Assembly: GCA_965231065.1 (NCBI GenBank)
Contig: OZ246410.1
Span: 323,046 to 387,045, forward strand
DNA length: 64,000 nucleotides
Direction of reading: 5' to 3'
From: an uncultured Methanosarcinales archaeon
GTDB taxonomy: Archaea > Nanobdellota > Nanobdellia > Woesearchaeales > UBA10107
Positions 1 through 28,449 of this stretch are shown one piece after another. The notes below the pieces were generated by a model. It was given only the letters and a program-made list of their open reading frames with translations, was not told the DNA's origin and did not search any database. The position numbers were made by a program, and so were the translations under genes. Each line of letters opens with the position of its first letter. Within the stretch, counting starts at the first letter, position 1.

Positions 1-836
1 GGATGAGGTGCTCTTCTATTTGGAAGATGACCGCAGGTCTGCCGTGCTTTTACTGCTGATTTCATCCATGCATCCAATCGTTCTTTTGTTGATGAATAGG
101 CGTTCAATTTGACAGTCTCTGTCTCCTTTCCGACATGTCGTTCCAATAACTGAGCTCCTTTCGCGATCGCCATCTGTACTGCTGATGTATCGTTCGGATC
201 TTCATGTGTTGAGAAACCAACAGGTACGTTATATCGGTGCCGTAAGAAATCAATCTGATTCAGTTGTAATTTATCATTTGGTGTCGGATACAGTGCGACA
301 CAATGCATCAGTGCGAAATCTTTTCCATTGCTTTCGAAAAGATGAGCGACATAATCGATGTCTTTCATGCTCGCACCTGCTGTTGAACAGACGATTGGTC
401 TTTGCGCTTTTGCAACCCGTTGCAATAATGGCTTATCTCGTGCTGAACAGCTTGCGATCTTGATGATGTCAAAACCATGTCTCTCGATAACATCCACGGA
501 ATTTTCATCAAACGGAGTACATGCAGTCAGTAATCCTAATTTTCTTGCTTCTTTGATGAGAATCTCGAATTCTTCCCACTTTAATCTGGTGCTCATGAAG
601 CGAGGGATGTGCTTGTTTGTCTTGTCGTTGACAAAATCAGGATGTACGAATGTATCTAGATCACGATATTGGAATTTGATAGCGACTTTCGCATTATTCG
701 CTTTCGCGACCTCGGCGACTTCTCTGATGATGTTAAGGCCATGCTCGACGCTACCTTGATGATTATTAGCCATATCAAGAATGAATAGGTCCTTGAATAT
801 AGGATTCCAACCTTTTTCTTCGAAGTTTTCAACCAT
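1..836 (-). CDS. Nonulosonic (sialic/legionaminic/pseudaminic) acid synthase, NeuB family; 3' end runs off the window start
   Basis: Minus-strand ORF open from the ATG at 834-836 to position 1; it is absent from the track because it has no in-window stop. My translation is MVENFEEKGWNPIFKDLFILDMANNHQGSVEHGLNIIREVAEVAKANNAKVAIKFQYRDL...GFSTHEDP...LERHVGKE. The NHxGS, KFQ, FSxHE and ERH motifs are those of the NeuB TIM-barrel family. Confidence 0.7.
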   Translation of the reverse strand, partial: MVENFEEKGWNPIFKDLFILDMANNHQGSVEHGLNIIREVAEVAKANNAKVAIKFQYRDLDTFVHPDFVNDKTNKHIPRFMSTRLKWEEFEILIKEARKLGLLTACTPFDENSVDVIERHGFDIIKIASCSARDKPLLQRVAKAQRPIVCSTAGASMKDIDYVAHLFESNGKDFALMHCVALYPTPNDKLQLNQIDFLRHRYNVPVGFSTHEDPNDTSAVQMAIAKGAQLLERHVGKETETVKLNAYSSTKERLDAWMKSAVKARQTCGHLPNRRAPH

Positions 837-916
837 CTAAACCCTTATCTTTTCTGACAATTCAACTATTTATAAAGTTTATACATGATAAGTCGGAAGT
901 CGTCATCATACGATGA

Positions 917-25726: not shown

Positions 25727-28449
25727 ACGACGATTTTATCTCCTGTCAATGCGTGTTCTTCGGTGAATTTCTTGAAATGCTCCAGGCCAATACCGTCATA
25801 GAAGAATAATCTGGTGAAGATACTTGTAGCAGTACTCGTTGATGCTTGTACGATGTTATAAGAGCCATTTTTGTTGATGAGCATGATTGTTTGATCTATC
25901 TGGCCGTTGATCTTTTTCTCCTGGAAACTGTTGTTTTCTACATAGACGATGGAATAGGGTCTCTTGATTCCTTCACTCGTACTTATCTGAACATCTTTCG
26001 TGTCAAGATCAACAAGATAGCCACCGCATATGAGTTTACTGCTATTACCTTGCTTCGAACATGATTGCTGTCCGCCATAACCAGGCCATGGTGCTATCCA
26101 TTGGTTCGCATCTCCTTCATTAGCAATACTCTTGAGCTGGACATAGATTTTCTTCGCCTCATCTTCATTCAGGTTGAGCCGCTTCTCGATGCGTTTGATC
26201 GCTTCATCTTTCGGCAAGTTTCGTGCATTGCTCCAGATGTCTGCTTTATTGAAATCCCAGCTGCCGAAGTGACCCCAGACACCTGCTTTACCGATCATAT
26301 CTTCGCTGGTGATGAAATAATCCTCGGGTGGATTGCAATGTGTGAATTTTAGGACTTCAAGTGATGTTTCTTTGTTGATTCCTTTGCTGGTAAGGTATGA
26401 TTGTGCGCCAGTGCTGTCCATCGCAATGATATCGTAAAGCATCTTGACGCTGGTCGGCGTGTCATTGACGATCTTGTTCAGTGCTTCGAACGCATCATTC
26501 GAACCGCAGTCAAGCATCCTGAGGATACCGATTGCTTGTTGTTCATTATCAGTAAGAAGAACTTTACCTATCCAGTGTGCCATCGGAGAGTTTTGTGAGG
26601 CTCCATCAAAGGTGACTGCCCTATCTGCGATATATTTGAAATGATGACCGAAGTCCCACCATGAATTGATTATTGCATCCGGCTTCGATTCTACTTTTAT
26701 TTTGGTAAGTGCATTGTACCATGCGTCGTTGACGAGAGGAACTTCATTCTTAACAGCACTTTTTGCGCCGACGATATATGGATTGATGATGAGCAACACA
26801 AGTATGATGAAGACAGTTCCCGTGATCTTCGGTGAGATGCCCATGCCTTCAAGATAGGTCATGAGTTTCTTGTATGTGATACCGATCGCTGCTCCGATCG
26901 CTAATGATATCGGTGGAACTAACATCATGGTGAATCGCACTCCTTTGGTACTCGCGTAGAAGATACCTGCTCCCCAGATGAGGATTAATAATGCATAGGC
27001 AAGATATTCTTTTCTGCCTTCTGTCTTAGTGAAGAAATCCTTCACGAAGATGAATGCTGTTGCTAAAAGTCCGACGTAAAAGAACAGATTGATGTTCTTC
27101 GCGCTTCCGAGATACATGATGAAGACAGCGAGAGCTAGTAATAATACATAATTCGTTCGTTCTGTCGATTCGCCCTTTCTGACCAAGAACAATAAGAGCA
27201 TGCCGAAAATCGCGGTGTAATAGAATACTTTGCCACCGAGGGAACCGACGATATCATCGAATGATGCTGAATTCAGTTCTGCTACGGTGGTGTATACGTT
27301 CGGCCAGAGATCAGCAAGACTTGCTTCCTTGATGTTCGCGAAGCCGAGCGGTTCCAATGGTGATCTGATGAATGCTCCTGGTGTCGTAAACAATGAGACA
27401 AATACACCTGATACTAATATCAATACTACTGAAGCGAGTATGATGCGCTTTGATTGCGCGTTCTCTATGACCCGTTTCATAGAGAACTTATCTTCAAAGA
27501 TGAACACATAGAGGAGATACAGACCGATTGTTCCTAAGACAAAGTCAAAGACATACCACCAACCGCTCCAGAAGATACTGAACACACCGATAGTAAATCC
27601 AGCAAGAGCGGCATAGATCGCTGATTTTTTGAAGTTGTGCTGCCGCATCGAAAGGAAGAAGAACCAGACGAACAAGACTGCGAACAAGATGTTGTATGAA
27701 TCAGTATCTGCGTGACCCCATGTTGTCCTTCCTAGGTATGCGCCATTGATTGCCATGATGATACCAGCAAAAAAAGCGCCCGTATTGCCTGAAAACATAC
27801 GTGCGATGAAAAAGATAGGTATTATTGATAGTGCGACAAAGATAATCGGATGATATGTCGCACTTTGCATCAGTGTTATCTTTGAGTTGAAGAAATGCAT
27901 GATCTTGTACAGATATGCAAGAACAATTGGATGTGACTTGACTCCTACAGTGGTTCCTTTCGGAGCGATCATGTGTGTATCCCAATCTTCGCCGTTCTTT
28001 TTGATGTCTCCTACGTAGCCGTGGTCAAGATAATTACGGGCATGTCTCAGGAACGCATACGGGTCGATATCTGGCATATATGTATAGCCATTCTCATCCC
28101 GGAACTGATCCTTGAATTGCTGTGATGTCTGTTCTATCTGAGCAAGAATCTGGGCCTTATTCTGTTTATACGCCGCTTGCCATTGCTGGTCCACTAACGT
28201 ATTGACGTTTTGGTCAGGCAGATTAGGGTATTGCTGCCGTATCTGTGTCTGGATGTTGGATTTGTAGTAGTTTTCGACTGTCGATTTCGCCCAGTCATCT
28301 GTTATGGGTAGAGTGGAAGGTATGAGTCGTATCTGTGCACTTAATAGTACAGGTATAATTAGAAGGAATATGACTCCGTATTTCTTGAAGAAAGGGACTA
28401 TCTTGATGCTTTTTAGACTCGACAAATCAAACGTTATTTCGTCAGACAC
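25708..28449 (-). CDS. aglB: Oligosaccharyltransferase AglB (STT3 homolog)
   Basis: 913 aa; N-terminal 13-TM domain plus large C-terminal domain carrying INSWWDFGHHF (the WWDYG-type motif). GTG start with a GGGGG RBS; last gene of the minus-strand glycosylation operon. Confidence 0.8.
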   Translation of the reverse strand: MSDEITFDLSSLKSIKIVPFFKKYGVIFLLIIPVLLSAQIRLIPSTLPITDDWAKSTVENYYKSNIQTQIRQQYPNLPDQNVNTLVDQQWQAAYKQNKAQILAQIEQTSQQFKDQFRDENGYTYMPDIDPYAFLRHARNYLDHGYVGDIKKNGEDWDTHMIAPKGTTVGVKSHPIVLAYLYKIMHFFNSKITLMQSATYHPIIFVALSIIPIFFIARMFSGNTGAFFAGIIMAINGAYLGRTTWGHADTDSYNILFAVLFVWFFFLSMRQHNFKKSAIYAALAGFTIGVFSIFWSGWWYVFDFVLGTIGLYLLYVFIFEDKFSMKRVIENAQSKRIILASVVLILVSGVFVSLFTTPGAFIRSPLEPLGFANIKEASLADLWPNVYTTVAELNSASFDDIVGSLGGKVFYYTAIFGMLLLFLVRKGESTERTNYVLLLALAVFIMYLGSAKNINLFFYVGLLATAFIFVKDFFTKTEGRKEYLAYALLILIWGAGIFYASTKGVRFTMMLVPPISLAIGAAIGITYKKLMTYLEGMGISPKITGTVFIILVLLIINPYIVGAKSAVKNEVPLVNDAWYNALTKIKVESKPDAIINSWWDFGHHFKYIADRAVTFDGASQNSPMAHWIGKVLLTDNEQQAIGILRMLDCGSNDAFEALNKIVNDTPTSVKMLYDIIAMDSTGAQSYLTSKGINKETSLEVLKFTHCNPPEDYFITSEDMIGKAGVWGHFGSWDFNKADIWSNARNLPKDEAIKRIEKRLNLNEDEAKKIYVQLKSIANEGDANQWIAPWPGYGGQQSCSKQGNSSKLICGGYLVDLDTKDVQISTSEGIKRPYSIVYVENNSFQEKKINGQIDQTIMLINKNGSYNIVQASTSTATSIFTRLFFYDGIGLEHFKKFTEEHALTGDKIVVWKVAW

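What the first reader, a model, noticed from the sequence alone, without database searches (positions are those of the whole stretch)
1..28449. A roughly 28-kb, nearly unidirectional archaeal glycan-assembly island that ends in AglB
From AglB (28449) back to about 10130, and again from 7675 to 1, almost every gene is on the minus strand, and many are joined by ATGA or TGATG overlaps. The island combines several modules. There is nonulosonic-acid synthesis (NeuB-like) and a complete GDP-heptose pathway. There are three GT9 heptosyltransferase homologs, three SAM methyltransferases, and GT2 and GT4 transferases. There are four Dol-P-sugar-synthase-like GT2s and two small 4-TM flippase-like proteins. 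Five GT-C-like polytopic proteins are present: two YfhO-like, two PMT/ArnT-like, and AglB itself. This is far richer than characterised archaeal agl clusters, which hold about 10 genes. It implies a lipid-linked glycan containing heptose, a nonulosonic acid and O-methylated sugars that is transferred by AglB or the GT-C paralogs.
Basis: partly seen in the sequence, partly recalled or inferred. Interest (0 to 1): 0.65.

Follow-up and report, generated by a model that had tools for sequence, protein, structure and literature searches.

The report
Archaeal heptose-type protein glycosylation gene island
A 29-kb block of 28 tightly packed genes in an uncultured archaeon from swine manure encodes the oligosaccharyltransferase AglB, a pathway for an activated seven-carbon sugar, three bacterial-LPS-type heptosyltransferases and four further membrane glycosyltransferases; it is a real and unusually rich, but still only predicted, variant of the archaeal protein-glycosylation clusters already known.

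Summary
Window 1-28449 carries 28 glycan genes with no other gene between them. 25 are on the minus strand, in two uninterrupted arrays (28449->10130, 17 genes; 7675->1, 8 genes), mostly joined by overlaps or gaps of 0-2 nt.

Profile searches confirm AglB/STT3 (WWDFG), three GT9 proteins with intact motifs, and an HddA/GmhA/HddC-GmhB set. They also confirm a bona fide transaldolase, three methyltransferases, GT2/GT4 enzymes, four polyprenol-phosphate-sugar-synthase-like GT2s, an ArnE/ArnF-like pair and a GacJ-like DUF2304. The two membrane proteins with no Pfam match have the GT-C fold, so there are five GT-C proteins.

All heptose-pathway and GT9 matches are best hits but fall below NCBI's equivalog cut-offs. 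The nonulosonic-acid module is weak. Its "NeuB" is a 506-aa NeuB-cupin fusion from a large, mostly bacterial, uncharacterised family, and no CMP-activating enzyme is in view.

The island is archaeal, not contamination. A related MAG shares 20 genes in order (54-89% identity). The core of EamA pair, GT2, DUF2304 and GT9, often beside AglB, recurs in other archaeal MAGs.

Heptose in an archaeal N-glycan and archaeal heptose clusters have precedent, so this is a new variant of a known kind. The glycan itself is inferred.

The parts
1..836 (-). N-terminal 278 codons of a 506-aa NeuB-cupin fusion protein. It is the last gene of the second array, and the gene runs 684 nt beyond the window start.
   Evidence: Pfam NeuB 151 bits. 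The full-length copy on public contig L010 has NeuB plus Cupin_2/Lyx_isomer. PseI 140/340 bits and NeuB 124/400 bits are both below cut-off. The family is large, with about 50% identity to proteins of many bacteria.
917..2302 (-). TagB/TagF-like transferase of a type that uses CDP/CMP-activated donors. Candidate transferase for the NeuB product or for glycerol phosphate.
   Evidence: Pfam Glyphos_transf 36.7 bits, above the 22.1 cut-off. Best NCBIfam hit is BFO_1060 family, 35/200 bits. That family is the Tannerella Pse/Leg transferase (PMC5420450). An HP motif lies at residue 299.
2350..3024 (-). SAM-dependent methyltransferase MT1.
   Evidence: Methyltransf_11 63.5 bits.
3025..4002 (-). Extended SDR acting on a nucleotide sugar, of dehydratase/epimerase type. 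Candidate modifier of the NDP-heptose.
   Evidence: Epimerase 182 bits and GDP_Man_Dehyd 158 bits. Best NCBIfam hit is dTDP-glucose 4,6-dehydratase, 141/365 bits.
3999..4709 (-). Transaldolase. Inferred to supply sedoheptulose 7-phosphate.
   Evidence: TIGR02134 transaldolase 318.8 bits, above the equivalog cut-off of 281.95. Conserved in the relative L013 at 61% identity.
4723..6039 (-). Fusion of a sugar-1-P nucleotidyltransferase (HddC-like, residues 3-239) with a HAD-IIIA phosphatase (GmhB-like, residues 250-420).
   Evidence: NTP_transferase 127 bits plus HAD domains. GmhB PRK08942 151/178 bits, TIGR00213 139/150 bits, HddC 98/300 bits, Man-1-P guanylyltransferase 138/440 bits. The two halves are separate genes in L013.
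6040..6747 (-). GmhA-like sedoheptulose-7-P isomerase. The probable start is Met25, at 6675.
   Evidence: SIS_2 43 bits. gmhA TIGR00441 91/209 bits is the best hit. Called as 211 aa on L010.
6689..7675 (-). HddA-like GHMP kinase (heptose-7-P 1-kinase). First gene of the second array.
   Evidence: GHMP_kinases_N and _C. HddA NF049969 E = 8e-50, aligned end to end, 170/600 bits. 89% identical in L013. A TATA-like TTTATATATA lies about 30 nt upstream.
7750..8820 (+). GT4 glycosyltransferase.
   Evidence: Glycos_transf_1 77.7 bits.
8813..9346 (-). Short SAM methyltransferase MT2. Motif I (VNFGCG) sits at the N-terminus.
   Evidence: Methyltransf_11 44 bits. Sequence. 80% identical in L013.
9410..10129 (+). 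SAM methyltransferase MT3.
   Evidence: Methyltransf_11 69 bits.
10130..10894 (-). Soluble GT2 glycosyltransferase GT2a.
   Evidence: Glycos_transf_2 65 bits.
10891..11655 (-). Soluble GT2 glycosyltransferase GT2b, a paralogue of GT2a.
   Evidence: Glycos_transf_2 78 bits. 31% identical to GT2a.
11652..12704 (-). GT9a, heptosyltransferase family.
   Evidence: Glyco_transf_9 149.5 bits. Heptosyltransferase III 150/170 bits. Motifs GDVLLTTP and DTGPAHIA.
12697..14169 (-). 490-aa polytopic GT-C glycosyltransferase from a rare, PMT_2-related family ('unk490').
   Evidence: No Pfam, NCBIfam or PDB sequence hit. Only 27 cluster representatives at E < 1e-30. Seven of the 10 remote profile hits scanned are GT-C families: six PMT_2 and one PTPS_related. 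A low-confidence model (pLDDT 59, pTM 0.62) matches only GT-C structures in its top 19 hits.
14220..15272 (-). GT9b, heptosyltransferase family.
   Evidence: Glyco_transf_9 100.7 bits. Heptosyltransferase II 119/135 bits. Motifs GDVLMTTP and DSGPMHIA.
15269..16387 (-). GT9c, heptosyltransferase family. It is the GT9 that is conserved next to the GT2/DUF2304/EamA core in other archaea.
   Evidence: Glyco_transf_9 136.8 bits. Heptosyltransferase II 114/135 bits. Motifs GDSIVLLP and DSGLMHVS. Its relatives at 42-57% identity are all in archaeal MAGs.
16390..16725 (-). DUF2304 small membrane protein, GacJ/Rv3632-like. Inferred activator of the adjacent GT2.
   Evidence: DUF2304 85 bits. Precedent in bioRxiv 10.1101/180810.
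16725..17495 (-). GT2c, polyprenol-phosphate-HexNAc/hexose synthase-like (PpgS/AglJ-like). The probable start is Met29.
   Evidence: Glycos_transf_2 80 bits. PpgS 165/370 bits and AglJ 118/325 bits.
17408..18175 (-). GT2d, ArnC/PgfS-like polyprenol-phosphate-sugar synthase-like.
   Evidence: Glycos_transf_2 61 bits. ArnC 65/529 bits is the best hit.
18127..18528 (-). EamA1, small ArnE/ArnF-like membrane protein. Inferred half of a flippase for lipid-phosphate-monosaccharide.
   Evidence: EamA 31.4 bits. ArnE 44/92 bits and ArnF 37/99 bits.
18465..18836 (-). EamA2, the paralogous partner of EamA1, with 4 predicted TM helices.
   Evidence: EamA 37.9 bits. ArnE 38/92 bits. 35% identical to EamA1.
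18836..19528 (-). GT2e, polyprenol-phosphate-sugar synthase-like.
   Evidence: Glycos_transf_2 100 bits. PgfS, ArnC and Dol-P-hexose transferase are the best hits.
19530..21575 (-). 681-aa GT-C protein of PTPS_related/DUF6541/YfhO type, with about 10 TM helices, an outside domain and a C-terminal TM helix.
   Evidence: PTPS_related 42.4 bits (cut-off 26.4), DUF6541 32.3 bits (cut-off 29), YfhO 26.4 bits (below the 28.5 cut-off). Topology.
21509..23389 (-). 626-aa GT-C protein ('unk626'), a distant paralogue of the 681-aa protein.
   Evidence: No Pfam or NCBIfam hit. Model with pLDDT 81.5 and pTM 0.84. Its top 22 Foldseek PDB hits are all GT-C: STT3, A. fulgidus AglB, PglB, AftD, ArnT, AftA, Pmt4 and EmbA/B/C. 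BLASTP against the 681-aa protein gives E = 5e-4.
23379..24065 (-). GT2f, AglJ-like dolichol-phosphate glycosyltransferase-like.
   Evidence: Glycos_transf_2 125 bits. AglJ TIGR04182 137/325 bits is the best hit.
24062..25726 (-). 554-aa PMT_2-type GT-C protein. It is conserved directly after AglB in the relative L005.
   Evidence: PMT_2 60.7 bits and PMT 34.5 bits. Agl23 TIGR03663 42/126 bits. L005 has AglB-PMT2 and L003 has PMT2-GT2f.
25708..28449 (-). AglB (STT3-type oligosaccharyltransferase), 913 aa. First gene of the 17-gene array.
   Evidence: STT3 110.8 bits plus STT3-PglB_core 27 bits. WWDFG at 597, DID at 127 in the first outside loop, 12 predicted TM helices.
28450..28640 (.). 191-nt divergent intergenic region. 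It holds a TATA-like TTTTTAAA and a GGGGG ribosome-binding site before the AglB GTG start. Inferred promoter of the long array.
   Evidence: Sequence read. The promoter role is inference only.

Best explanation
This is an archaeal cell-surface glycosylation island centred on AglB and built from three cooperating modules.

(1) Sugar supply (7675->1). A transaldolase makes sedoheptulose-7-P. GmhA isomerises it. The GHMP kinase HddA phosphorylates C1. The GmhB half of the fusion protein removes the 7-phosphate, and the HddC half makes an NDP-heptose, most likely GDP-D-glycero-alpha-D-manno-heptose. An SDR and a methyltransferase may modify it further.

(2) Cytoplasmic assembly on dolichol phosphate. 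An AglJ/AglK/PpgS-like GT2 charges Dol-P with the first sugar. The best candidate is GT2c with its DUF2304 partner, because this pair always sits beside GT9c. The three GT9 enzymes then add heptoses to this lipid-anchored acceptor, as WaaC, WaaF and WaaQ do on lipid A-Kdo. GT2a, GT2b, GT4 and the methyltransferases finish the glycan.

(3) Outside the membrane. AglB transfers the flipped glycan to Asn. The remaining Dol-P-sugar synthase-like GT2s, the ArnE/F-like EamA pair and the four extra GT-C enzymes add single sugars from Dol-P-sugars to the glycan or to protein. This follows the logic of AglD/AglR/AglS, ArnC/E/F/T and GacI/J/K/L.

Shown here: gene identities at family or fold level, the operon-like packing, the archaeal context, and the conserved synteny. 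Inferred: the nucleotide, every donor and acceptor, the order of steps, and that the modules feed one glycan.
For: Family assignments:
- AglB: STT3 plus WWDFG and DxD motifs.
- Three GT9 proteins pass Pfam by 79-128 bits over threshold and keep the GD...P and D[ST]G..H motifs.
- The best NCBIfam hit of each of four neighbouring domains is GmhA, HddA, GmhB or an NDP-sugar pyrophosphorylase. The cluster-encoded transaldolase passes its equivalog cut-off.
- The four short GT2s hit PpgS, AglJ, ArnC, PgfS and Dol-P-hexose transferase first.
- The EamA pair hits ArnE/ArnF first.
- DUF2304 is the GacJ/Rv3632 family, which stimulates the adjacent polyprenol-P-HexNAc synthase.
- Four non-AglB GT-C proteins match four Dol-P-sugar-synthase-like GT2s, and two of the pairs are adjacent: PMT2-GT2f and the 681-aa protein-GT2e.

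Packing: 17 genes with no gap above 50 nt start at AglB.

Conservation:
- L013, a MAG from the same study, has 20 of 23 genes orthologous and collinear at 54-89% identity. HddA is the most conserved at 89%.
- L003 has 11 collinear orthologues at 35-69% identity, ten of them at 51-69%.
- The core of EamA x2, GT2c, DUF2304 and GT9c recurs in L003, L004 and L005. It lies next to AglB in L005. In L009, AglB-GT2c-DUF2304 lies with GT9c, GmhA and GmhB.
- In L008, GT9c sits beside a PfkB-SIS fusion and GmhB, which is the ADP-heptose type of route.

Precedent: T. acidophilum has a heptose-containing N-glycan (PMC11407970).
Against: - Every heptose-pathway and GT9 hit is below NCBI's equivalog cut-off, so specificities are unproven.
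- The nucleotidyltransferase scores higher against the Man-1-P guanylyltransferase model (138 bits) than against HddC (98 bits).
- No oligosaccharide flippase of the MOP/Wzx type lies anywhere in the 64-kb window, although relatives L003, L004 and L005 have one in the cluster.
- No phosphoglycosyltransferase (AglH/WecA type) is present.
- In L013 the GT9b and GT9c positions are occupied by an SDR, and that MAG's GT9c homologue lies on another contig among unrelated genes (L002). GT9c is therefore not obligatorily linked to the island.
- Distant homologues of the two new GT-C families sit in glycan clusters without GT9.
- The secreted proteins encoded next to AglB are not enriched in N-X-S/T sequons: 0-0.7 per 100 aa against 0.4 for the island's own proteins.
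- Co-location does not prove a single product.
Confidence: 0.6

Rival explanations
1. The island is a mosaic of at least two independent pathways that are only parked together. AglB, with one or two GT2s, makes a simple N-glycan. The heptose genes, the GT9s and some GT-C enzymes build a different product. That product could be a heptose-containing lipoglycan, a capsule or S-layer-associated polysaccharide, or an O-linked glycan added by the PMT-like GT-C enzymes.
For: - Archaeal and bacterial glycan genes commonly cluster without sharing a product (established knowledge).
- The island splits into two arrays with their own TATA-like elements and a three-gene region of mixed strand between them.
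- GT9c is unlinked from the island in the L013/L002 genome.
- PMT_2 and PTPS_related/YfhO-type GT-Cs in bacteria modify lipid A, teichoic acids and arabinogalactan rather than N-glycans (and established knowledge).
- A PT-rich membrane protein, a possible O-glycosylation substrate, is encoded divergently from AglB.
Against: - The GT9 genes lie inside the same gap-free 17-gene array that begins with AglB.
- AglB is adjacent to the GT2c-DUF2304...GT9c core in L005 and L009 as well.
- No polymerase, chain-length regulator or ABC/Wzx exporter typical of polysaccharide pathways was found in the window.
Confidence: 0.27
2. The 'heptose' reading is wrong. The GHMP kinase, SIS protein, HAD-nucleotidyltransferase fusion and transaldolase activate another sugar, such as a hexose, a ketose-derived sugar or a precursor for the NeuB-cupin enzyme. 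The GT9 proteins transfer a non-heptose sugar.
For: - All hits are below equivalog cut-offs.
- The nucleotidyltransferase domain scores higher against the Man-1-P guanylyltransferase and MurU models than against HddC.
- GT9 as a CAZy family also contains non-heptosyl transferases (established knowledge).
- The NeuB-cupin gene closes the same array, and its substrate is unknown.
Against: - HddA is by far the best model for the kinase: E = 8e-50 with an end-to-end alignment, against 7.5e-27 for the next model.
- gmhA models are the top four hits of the SIS protein, and GmhB models are the top two hits of the HAD half.
- A dedicated transaldolase fits a need for sedoheptulose-7-P.
- In L008 and L009, GT9c homologues again sit with GmhA/GmhB-type genes, in L008 with the alternative PfkB (HldA-type) kinase. 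This repeated pairing is what a heptose link would predict.
Confidence: 0.1
3. The island is bacterial DNA, either an LPS-core or S-layer glycan cluster mis-assembled or mis-binned into an archaeal contig, or a very recent wholesale transfer from a bacterium.
For: GT9, GmhA/GmhB, ArnE/F-like and GacI/J-like proteins are best known from bacteria. The NeuB-cupin protein is about 50% identical to proteins of many bacterial MAGs.
Against: - The island contains AglB with archaeal-type length and motifs.
- It is contiguous with archaeal housekeeping genes (Nre, NurA, topoisomerase, AlaRS, PEP synthase) in the same window.
- G+C is uniform across the window.
- The same sequence occurs on independent assemblies from several runs and on a 774-kb contig.
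- A scan of 185,579 bacterial and archaeal species genomes with GT9c confirmed relatives only in archaeal MAGs. All 8 distinct loci (from 9 confirmed stretches) are archaeal.
Confidence: 0.03

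Closest known systems
Haloferax volcanii Agl pathway: AglB, AglJ/G/I/E on Dol-P, and AglD/AglR/AglS adding the last mannose outside the cell
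   Same: - An STT3-type oligosaccharyltransferase clustered with its glycosyltransferases.
- AglJ-like GT2s as likely Dol-P-charging enzymes.
- Dol-P-sugar synthase plus a polytopic transferase, implying sugar addition on the outer face.
- Methyltransferases in the cluster.
   Different: - 28 genes rather than about a dozen.
- GT9 enzymes and a nucleotide-heptose pathway are present.
- Four extra GT-C proteins instead of one (AglS).
- A small ArnE/F-like pair, and no MOP-type AglR in the window.
- All similarities to Agl models are below their cut-offs: AglJ 137/325 bits and Agl23 42/126 bits.
GDP-D-glycero-alpha-D-manno-heptose pathway of the Aneurinibacillus thermoaerophilus S-layer glycan (GmhA, HddA, GmhB, HddC)
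   Same: The same four enzyme types are encoded side by side: a SIS isomerase, a GHMP kinase (not the PfkB kinase of the ADP route), a HAD-IIIA phosphatase and an NTP_transferase. They lie in a surface-glycoprotein context.
   Different: - Archaeal host.
- GmhB and HddC are fused.
- A transaldolase is built into the operon.
- Scores are below equivalog cut-offs.
- The nucleotide is not established.
LPS inner-core heptosyltransferases WaaC/WaaF/WaaQ (CAZy GT9)
   Same: - The Pfam GT9 domain, with the N-terminal GD...P and C-terminal D(S/T)G..H motifs.
- Several paralogues in a row.
- A presumed lipid-anchored acceptor at the cytoplasmic membrane face.
   Different: - No lipid A or Kdo in archaea, so the acceptor must be something else, inferred here to be a dolichol-phosphate-linked sugar.
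- The donor is probably the alpha-GDP rather than the beta-ADP heptose.
- Scores are just under the TIGR equivalog cut-offs: 150/170, 119/135 and 114/135 bits.
Three-component polyprenol-phosphate-sugar systems: ArnC/ArnE/ArnF/ArnT, GacI/GacJ/GacK/GacL, PpgS/Rv3632/Rv3779
   Same: - A short GT2 synthase.
- A DUF2304 activator (GacJ/Rv3632).
- A small paired EamA/SMR-like flippase (ArnE/F).
- GT-C transferases, all encoded together.
   Different: - Here the parts are multiplied, with 4 GT2s and 4 GT-Cs, and they sit in an AglB operon of an archaeon.
- The lipid would be dolichol, not undecaprenol or decaprenol.
- The targets are unknown.
- Two of the GT-C proteins belong to families with no Pfam model.
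Reported archaeal heptose cases: the T. acidophilum N-glycan heptose, and ADP-heptose clusters in 'Iplasma' and in Methanococcus maripaludis KA1/JJ
   Same: Heptose chemistry or heptose-pathway genes tied to archaeal surface glycosylation (PMC11407970, PMC3750248, PMC12667266).
   Different: - Those reports describe ADP-type pathways, or a sugar without known genes.
- In the passages read, none describes GT9 transferases in an aglB operon, or the conserved EamA-GT2-DUF2304-GT9 core.
Tannerella forsythia nonulosonic-acid module: Pse/Leg synthesis plus the TagB-like transferase Tanf_01245/BFO_1060
   Same: A NeuB-family gene next to a TagB/TagF-like transferase that would use a CMP/CDP-activated donor.
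   Different: - The match to the BFO_1060 family is 35 bits against a cut-off of 200.
- The NeuB protein is a cupin fusion, far from the PseI and NeuB equivalogs.
- No CMP-synthetase, aminotransferase or acetyltransferase genes are in view.

Membership tests
AglB / STT3 oligosaccharyltransferase | STT3 membrane domain with about 13 TM helices and a C-terminal soluble domain. | tested here: met
   PF02516 110.8 bits (cut-off 24.5) and PF21436 27.2 bits (cut-off 23). 12 TM helices by hydropathy, then about 350 soluble residues.
AglB / STT3 oligosaccharyltransferase | Catalytic WWDYG-type motif, and an acidic DxD motif in the first external loop. | tested here: met
   WWDFG at 597-601. DID at 127-129, in the loop after TM1. 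The DK/MI motif was not identified with confidence.
AglB / STT3 oligosaccharyltransferase | Transfers a lipid-linked glycan to Asn in N-X-S/T. | not testable with these tools
   Needs biochemistry or glycoproteomics.
CAZy GT9 heptosyltransferases | Glyco_transf_9 (GT-B) domain above the curated threshold. | tested here: met
   149.5, 100.7 and 136.8 bits against a cut-off of 22.
CAZy GT9 heptosyltransferases | Conserved N-terminal GD...P motif (catalytic Asp) and C-terminal D(S/T)G..H donor-binding motif. | tested here: met
   GDVLLTTP/DTGPAHIA, GDVLMTTP/DSGPMHIA and GDSIVLLP/DSGLMHVS. The motif definitions come from my knowledge of WaaC/WaaF.
CAZy GT9 heptosyltransferases | Equivalog-level match to heptosyltransferase I, II or III. 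| tested here: not met
   Best scores are 150/170 (III), 119/135 (II) and 114/135 (II), all below cut-off. These are GT9 family members but not orthologues of WaaC, WaaF or WaaQ.
CAZy GT9 heptosyltransferases | Uses an NDP-heptose donor. | not testable with these tools
   Supported only by repeated co-location with heptose-pathway genes, in the window and in L008, L009 and L013.
GDP-D-glycero-alpha-D-manno-heptose pathway (GmhA, HddA, GmhB, HddC) | GmhA sedoheptulose-7-P isomerase. | tested here: inconclusive
   The SIS_2 domain passes Pfam. The top four NCBIfam hits are gmhA models, but 91/209 bits is below cut-off.
GDP-D-glycero-alpha-D-manno-heptose pathway (GmhA, HddA, GmhB, HddC) | HddA, a GHMP-type heptose-7-P kinase that gives the alpha anomer. 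| tested here: inconclusive
   Best hit NF049969, E = 8e-50, residues 2-323 on profile positions 3-334 of 338, but 170/600 bits.
GDP-D-glycero-alpha-D-manno-heptose pathway (GmhA, HddA, GmhB, HddC) | GmhB, a HAD-IIIA 7-phosphatase. | tested here: inconclusive
   PRK08942 151/178 bits and TIGR00213 139.3/149.6 bits are just below cut-off. The HAD-IIIA model TIGR01662 passes at 106/44.6 bits.
GDP-D-glycero-alpha-D-manno-heptose pathway (GmhA, HddA, GmhB, HddC) | HddC guanylyltransferase specific for heptose-1-P. | tested here: inconclusive
   NTP_transferase passes Pfam. HddC scores 98/300 bits and Man-1-P guanylyltransferase 138/440 bits. The nucleotide and the sugar are not resolved.
Three-component polyprenol-P-sugar glycosylation (Arn, Gac, Gtr, AglD/R/S type) | A GT2 that makes a polyprenol-monophosphate sugar. 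| tested here: inconclusive
   The four GT2s pass PF00535. Their best NCBIfam hits are PpgS (165/370), AglJ (137/325), ArnC (65/529) and PgfS (67/500), all below cut-off.
Three-component polyprenol-P-sugar glycosylation (Arn, Gac, Gtr, AglD/R/S type) | A small membrane partner or flippase. | tested here: met
   DUF2304 85.3 bits (cut-off 25.5). Two EamA half-size proteins at 31.4 and 37.9 bits (cut-off 28.2). ArnE/ArnF are their best NCBIfam hits, but below cut-off. This is met at family level only. Flipping itself is untested.
Three-component polyprenol-P-sugar glycosylation (Arn, Gac, Gtr, AglD/R/S type) | A GT-C fold transferase. | tested here: met
   PMT_2 60.7 bits. PTPS_related 42.4 bits. 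The unk626 model (pTM 0.84) hits only GT-C structures in its top 22. unk490 is assigned by transitive PMT_2 homology plus a low-confidence model that hits only GT-C structures in its top 19.
Nonulosonic-acid (sialic, pseudaminic, legionaminic) biosynthesis | NeuB/PseI/LegI-type synthase at equivalog level, with a SAF domain. | tested here: not met
   The NeuB Pfam domain passes (151 bits), but PseI scores 140/340 bits and NeuB 124/400 bits. There is no Pfam SAF hit, and the protein has a C-terminal Cupin_2 domain.
Nonulosonic-acid (sialic, pseudaminic, legionaminic) biosynthesis | A CMP-nonulosonate synthetase and the upstream sugar-modifying enzymes in the locus. | tested here: not met
   None is found among the ORFs scanned in the 64-kb window, or in the 1.5 kb beyond its start. 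Genes elsewhere in the genome cannot be excluded.

The most novel reading that the evidence does not exclude
GT9 enzymes, known essentially from bacterial LPS-core assembly, are used by a set of uncultured archaea to build a heptose oligosaccharide directly on a dolichol-phosphate-linked sugar. That sugar would be made by a GacI/GacJ-like GT2-DUF2304 pair, and AglB would then transfer the product to protein. The archaea concerned are MAGs labelled Methanosarcinales, Woesearchaeota and Nanoarchaeota. Four further GT-C enzymes, two of them from families with no Pfam model, would decorate the glycan outside the cell. If correct, these would be the first archaeal heptosyltransferases. The conserved EamA-GT2-DUF2304-GT9 core would define a new initiation and extension route for N-glycans, linking LPS-core and N-glycosylation enzymology.
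Probability: 0.35. Interest if true: 0.65.

Novelty: new variant of a known kind. Interest (0 to 1): 0.45.

Why it matters
Archaeal N-glycans are the most diverse known, but only a handful of pathways, all from cultured species, have been worked out. I found no characterised archaeal heptosyltransferase in the literature searched.

This island gives a complete, testable parts list:
- a self-sufficient nucleotide-heptose supply line that includes its own transaldolase;
- three GT9 candidates;
- a conserved GT2-DUF2304-EamA-GT9 core next to AglB that recurs in several uncultured archaeal lineages;
- two new GT-C families.

If it is confirmed, it would show that the enzyme logic of the bacterial LPS inner core has been recruited into archaeal protein glycosylation. 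It would also give handles for recognising heptose-type surface glycans in DPANN-like and other uncultured archaea, such as antibodies, lectins and predictions of phage or virus receptors.

If the modules turn out to be independent, the island remains a useful catalogue but is not a conceptual advance.

Tried and rejected
(1) Sequence search of the three unassigned membrane proteins against PDB chains found nothing meaningful. I replaced it with profile searches and fold comparison.

(2) I tested whether the secreted proteins encoded divergently from AglB (28641-34217) are its substrates. Their sequon density is not elevated, so no claim is made.

(3) I suspected MT2 (177 aa) was a truncated pseudo-methyltransferase. 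This is rejected. It has an N-terminal VNFGCG motif I, an in-frame stop upstream, and an 80%-identical 173-aa orthologue in L013.

(4) Contamination or mis-binning is rejected.

(5) A complete nonulosonic-acid pathway is rejected for the visible region.

(6) I tested whether the GT-C unk490 always accompanies GT9. It does not. A 30%-identical homologue sits among GT4 genes and an SDR, with no GT9.

(7) Attempts to name the organism failed. The exact-sequence cluster look-up returned no names or accessions. Contig look-ups showed only unnamed Logan contigs from runs SRR8931234, SRR8931243 and SRR8931244. Assembly GCA_964572885.1, a MAG isolate named SRP193066_co2_421, belongs to the L013 relative and not to the window's organism. 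SRP193066 is a study of swine manure and manure-treated soil columns. The window's own link to that study is inferred from the neighbouring run numbers (SRR89312xx), not shown. Relatives carry conflicting labels (Methanosarcinales versus Woesearchaeota/Nanoarchaeota), so the order-level taxonomy is left open.

(8) Loci from the genome scan were not exported to the script sandbox. I moved their ORF translations in through a summary-mode protein alignment in order to run BLASTP.

(9) The sigma-70 promoter scanner was not used because the host is archaeal. TATA-like boxes were only read by eye.

Full report
**What is in the sequence**

ORF listing and Pfam scans show that window 1-28449 is filled, without any unrelated gene, by 28 glycan-related genes.

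In the direction of transcription (minus strand) the first array runs from 28449 to 10130. Its genes, in order, are:
- AglB (913 aa)
- a PMT_2-type GT-C (554 aa)
- GT2f
- a 626-aa membrane protein
- a 681-aa PTPS_related/DUF6541/YfhO-like membrane protein
- GT2e
- two small EamA proteins
- GT2d and GT2c
- DUF2304
- GT9c and GT9b
- a 490-aa membrane protein
- GT9a
- GT2b and GT2a

Three genes of mixed strand follow: methyltransferase MT3 (+), MT2 (-) and GT4 (+).

The second minus-strand array runs from 7675 past position 1. Its genes, in order, are:
- a GHMP kinase
- a SIS isomerase
- an NTP-transferase-HAD fusion
- a transaldolase
- an SDR
- methyltransferase MT1
- a TagB/TagF-like transferase
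- a NeuB-family gene cut by the window edge

Junctions are operon-like. There are five 4-nt overlaps, two 1-nt overlaps, one 8-nt overlap and four junctions of 0-2 nt, and no gap above 50 nt in the 17-gene array. The five apparent long overlaps come from taking the longest ORF. Independent gene calls on an identical public contig use internal starts. G+C is even across the window.

**Where it comes from**

The rest of the window carries archaeal housekeeping genes: Nre, NurA, topoisomerase, AlaRS, PEP synthase and tRNAs. Identical proteins occur on several independent assemblies and on a 774-kb contig held by NCBI. The contigs shown come from runs SRR8931234, SRR8931243 and SRR8931244. A related MAG is named for study SRP193066, which sampled swine manure and manure-treated soil columns. 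The window's own link to that study is inferred from the neighbouring run numbers.

A scan of one genome per species for 185,579 bacterial and archaeal species with GT9c confirmed relatives only in archaeal MAGs, at 8 distinct loci. These MAGs are labelled Methanosarcinales, Woesearchaeota, Nanoarchaeota or simply archaeon. The labels conflict, and I could not place the organism at order level. Bacterial contamination is excluded for practical purposes.

**Testing the gene calls**

Results from NCBIfam:
- The transaldolase passes its equivalog cut-off (319/282 bits).
- The kinase matches HddA best (E = 8e-50, end to end, 170/600 bits).
- The SIS protein matches gmhA models best (91/209 bits).
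- The HAD half matches GmhB best (151/178 and 139/150 bits).
- The nucleotidyltransferase half matches Man-1-P guanylyltransferase (138/440 bits) ahead of HddC (98/300 bits).
- The three GT9 proteins pass Pfam by a wide margin and sit just under the TIGR heptosyltransferase cut-offs (150/170, 119/135 and 114/135 bits). They keep the GD...P and D(S/T)G..H motifs.
- The four short GT2s (c-f) hit PpgS, AglJ, ArnC, PgfS and Dol-P-hexose transferase first.
- The EamA pair hits ArnE and ArnF first.
- AglB has WWDFG, a DID motif in its first loop, and 12 predicted TM helices.

All these names are thus supported at family level, but none at the orthologue level that NCBI's curated cut-offs demand.

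**The unassigned membrane proteins**

The 626-aa protein has 8 detectable homologues. Its AlphaFold model (pLDDT 81.5, pTM 0.84) matches only GT-C glycosyltransferases in its top 22 PDB hits: STT3, A. fulgidus AglB, PglB, AftD, ArnT, AftA, Pmt4 and EmbA/B/C.

The 490-aa protein belongs to a rare family. Only 4 homologues turned up in 5.8 billion clusters, and 27 representatives at E < 1e-30 among 1.84 billion. Its profile reaches weakly (E from 1e-8 to 1e-3, query residues about 40-210) into other proteins. Of the 10 I scanned, six are PMT_2 and one is PTPS_related by Pfam. Its low-confidence model (pLDDT 59, pTM 0.62) again matches only GT-C structures in the top 19 hits.

More distant homologues of both families sit in other glycan clusters that lack GT9.

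**The nonulosonic-acid claim**

On public contig L010 the NeuB gene is complete (506 aa). It is a NeuB domain followed by a Cupin_2/lyxose-isomerase-like domain, with no Pfam SAF hit. It scores 140/340 bits against PseI and 124/400 bits against NeuB. The next gene is convergent and has no family hit.

The fusion belongs to a very large family with about 50% identity to proteins of Rhodospirillales, Myxococcota, Nitrospirae, Geobacteraceae and Uhrbacteria MAGs. These are annotated only as 'N-acetylneuraminate synthase family'.

The neighbouring TagB/TagF-like protein weakly matches the BFO_1060 family (35/200 bits), which contains the Tannerella Pse/Leg transferases (PMC5420450). It carries an HP motif.

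A PEP-condensing enzyme together with a transferase that uses a CMP/CDP-activated donor makes an ulosonic-acid branch possible.

**Comparative evidence**
- L013, from assembly GCA_964572885.1 (isolate SRP193066_co2_421), carries 20 of 23 genes orthologous and collinear with the window at 54-89% identity. The heptose genes are the most conserved: HddA 89% and GmhA 79%. There HddC and GmhB are separate genes, and an SDR replaces GT9b and GT9c.
- L003, a MAG labelled Woesearchaeota with a 681-kb contig, has PMT2, GT2f, the 681-aa GT-C, GT2e, the 626-aa GT-C, EamA2, EamA1, GT2c, DUF2304, GT9c and GT9b in order. Identity is 51-69% for ten of these and 35% for the 626-aa GT-C. An extra GT9-like gene (431 aa) lies between the 626-aa GT-C and EamA2.
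- L005 has AglB, PMT2, GT2, EamA x2, GT2c and DUF2304, then GT9c further on.
- L004 has EamA x2, GT2c, DUF2304 and GT9c.
- L009 has AglB, GT2c and DUF2304, with GT9c, GmhA and GmhB nearby.
- L008 has GT9c next to a PfkB-SIS fusion and GmhB, which is the ADP-heptose style of route.

The recurrent unit is therefore the EamA pair, a PpgS/AglJ-like GT2, DUF2304 and GT9c. It is often beside AglB and repeatedly lies near heptose-phosphate genes. L003, L004 and L005 also encode a MOP/Wzx-type flippase in the cluster. The window has none.

**How it most likely works** (inference built on the above)

Module 1 makes an NDP-heptose from central metabolites: transaldolase, then GmhA, HddA, GmhB and HddC. 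GDP is the best guess for the nucleotide, because the kinase is of the GHMP/HddA type.

Module 2 works at the cytoplasmic face. GT2c with DUF2304 charges dolichol phosphate with a first sugar. This would be analogous to AglK/AglJ in euryarchaea (established knowledge), and to GacI/GacJ and PpgS/Rv3632. GT9c, GT9b and GT9a then add heptoses to this lipid-anchored acceptor. GT2a, GT2b, GT4 and the methyltransferases complete the glycan.

Module 3 works outside the membrane. After flipping, for which no flippase has been identified, AglB transfers the glycan to Asn. The other Dol-P-sugar synthase-like GT2s, the ArnE/F-like pair and the four extra GT-C enzymes add single sugars outside the membrane.

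The 4:4 ratio of such GT2s to non-AglB GT-Cs, with two adjacent pairs (PMT2-GT2f and the 681-aa protein-GT2e), fits this reading. I put about 0.6 on this overall scheme. The main rival, at about 0.27, is that the island is a mosaic in which the heptose/GT9 part builds a product other than the AglB substrate.

**Comparison with what is known, and novelty**

The logic is that of known archaeal Agl pathways combined with three bacterial paradigms:
- the GDP-heptose pathway of a Gram-positive S-layer glycan;
- the GT9 heptosyltransferases of the LPS core;
- the Arn/Gac/PpgS three-component systems.

Heptose in an archaeal N-glycan has been reported for T. acidophilum (PMC11407970). ADP-heptose clusters near glycosylation genes have been noted in 'Iplasma' (PMC3750248) and in M. 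maripaludis KA1/JJ (PMC12667266). Searches for archaeal heptosyltransferases, and for DPANN plus heptose, found no characterisation.

What looks new is the following:
- GT9 genes inside an aglB operon;
- the conserved EamA-GT2-DUF2304-GT9 core across several uncultured archaeal lineages;
- the fused HddC-GmhB gene and the operon-encoded transaldolase;
- two GT-C families that have no Pfam model.

This makes it a new variant of a known kind. It would be moderately interesting to archaeal glycobiologists, and it is testable, but it is neither categorically new nor, so far, more than a prediction.

Noticed in passing
window 29354-31099 (+): A 581-aa secreted protein with a signal peptide and no Pfam hit. 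Its C-terminal third is rich in alternating Gly and aromatic residues and ends ...GLGVGTRF, which resembles the C-terminal signature of bacterial outer-membrane beta-barrels. That is odd in an archaeal contig. It lies next to He_PIG/PKD/CARDB and NPCBM_assoc surface proteins that have C-terminal TM anchors.
   Followed up: no
window 1-836 and L010:11467-12987: The NeuB-like gene is a NeuB-cupin fusion (506 aa). It belongs to a very large uncharacterised family at about 50% identity in diverse bacteria, including CPR. Its substrate is unknown. The mannose-6-P-isomerase/lyxose-isomerase-like cupin suggests a coupled isomerase-condensation reaction, for example a KDN-like product.
   Followed up: partly
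window 59013-60842 (-) and 56726-57886 (-): The alanyl-tRNA synthetase is only 609 aa and ends right after the tRNA_SAD domain, so it has no C-terminal DHHA1/C-Ala domain. A separate 386-aa DHH/DHHA1 protein lies two genes away. This could be a reduced or split AlaRS of the kind seen in small-genome archaea, or the second protein could simply be a RecJ-like nuclease.
   Followed up: no
window 54113-55978 (-): A 621-aa protein made of two SDR-type domains (NAD_binding_4, then Epimerase/NmrA). It lies outside the island, next to an M50 protease and tRNA-Gly.
   Followed up: no
L008:11604-13136 (+): In an unclassified archaeal MAG, a PfkB-type kinase is fused to a SIS (GmhA-like) domain. It lies between a GT9c homologue and a GmhB homologue. 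This is the ADP-heptose (HldA-type) version of the pathway, used where the window has the GHMP/HddA version.
   Followed up: partly
L003, L002/L013, L005, L009 (record titles): Close, collinear relatives of the island carry conflicting taxonomic labels: 'Methanosarcinales' for third-party assemblies, and 'Woesearchaeota' or 'Nanoarchaeota' for others. One relative comes from a 0.1-um groundwater filter fraction. Either the island moves between lineages or some labels are wrong. The window's organism may be DPANN-like.
   Followed up: partly
L009:4098-7742 (+): The AglB homologue of a Nanoarchaeota MAG is 1214 aa, about 300 aa longer than the window's AglB. It is followed directly by GT2c-like and DUF2304 genes.
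   Followed up: no
window 4723-6039 (-) versus L013:14982-16294: HddC-like and GmhB-like functions are one fused 438-aa gene in the window, but two overlapping genes (248 and 189 aa) in the related MAG. This looks like a recent gene fusion.
   Followed up: yes
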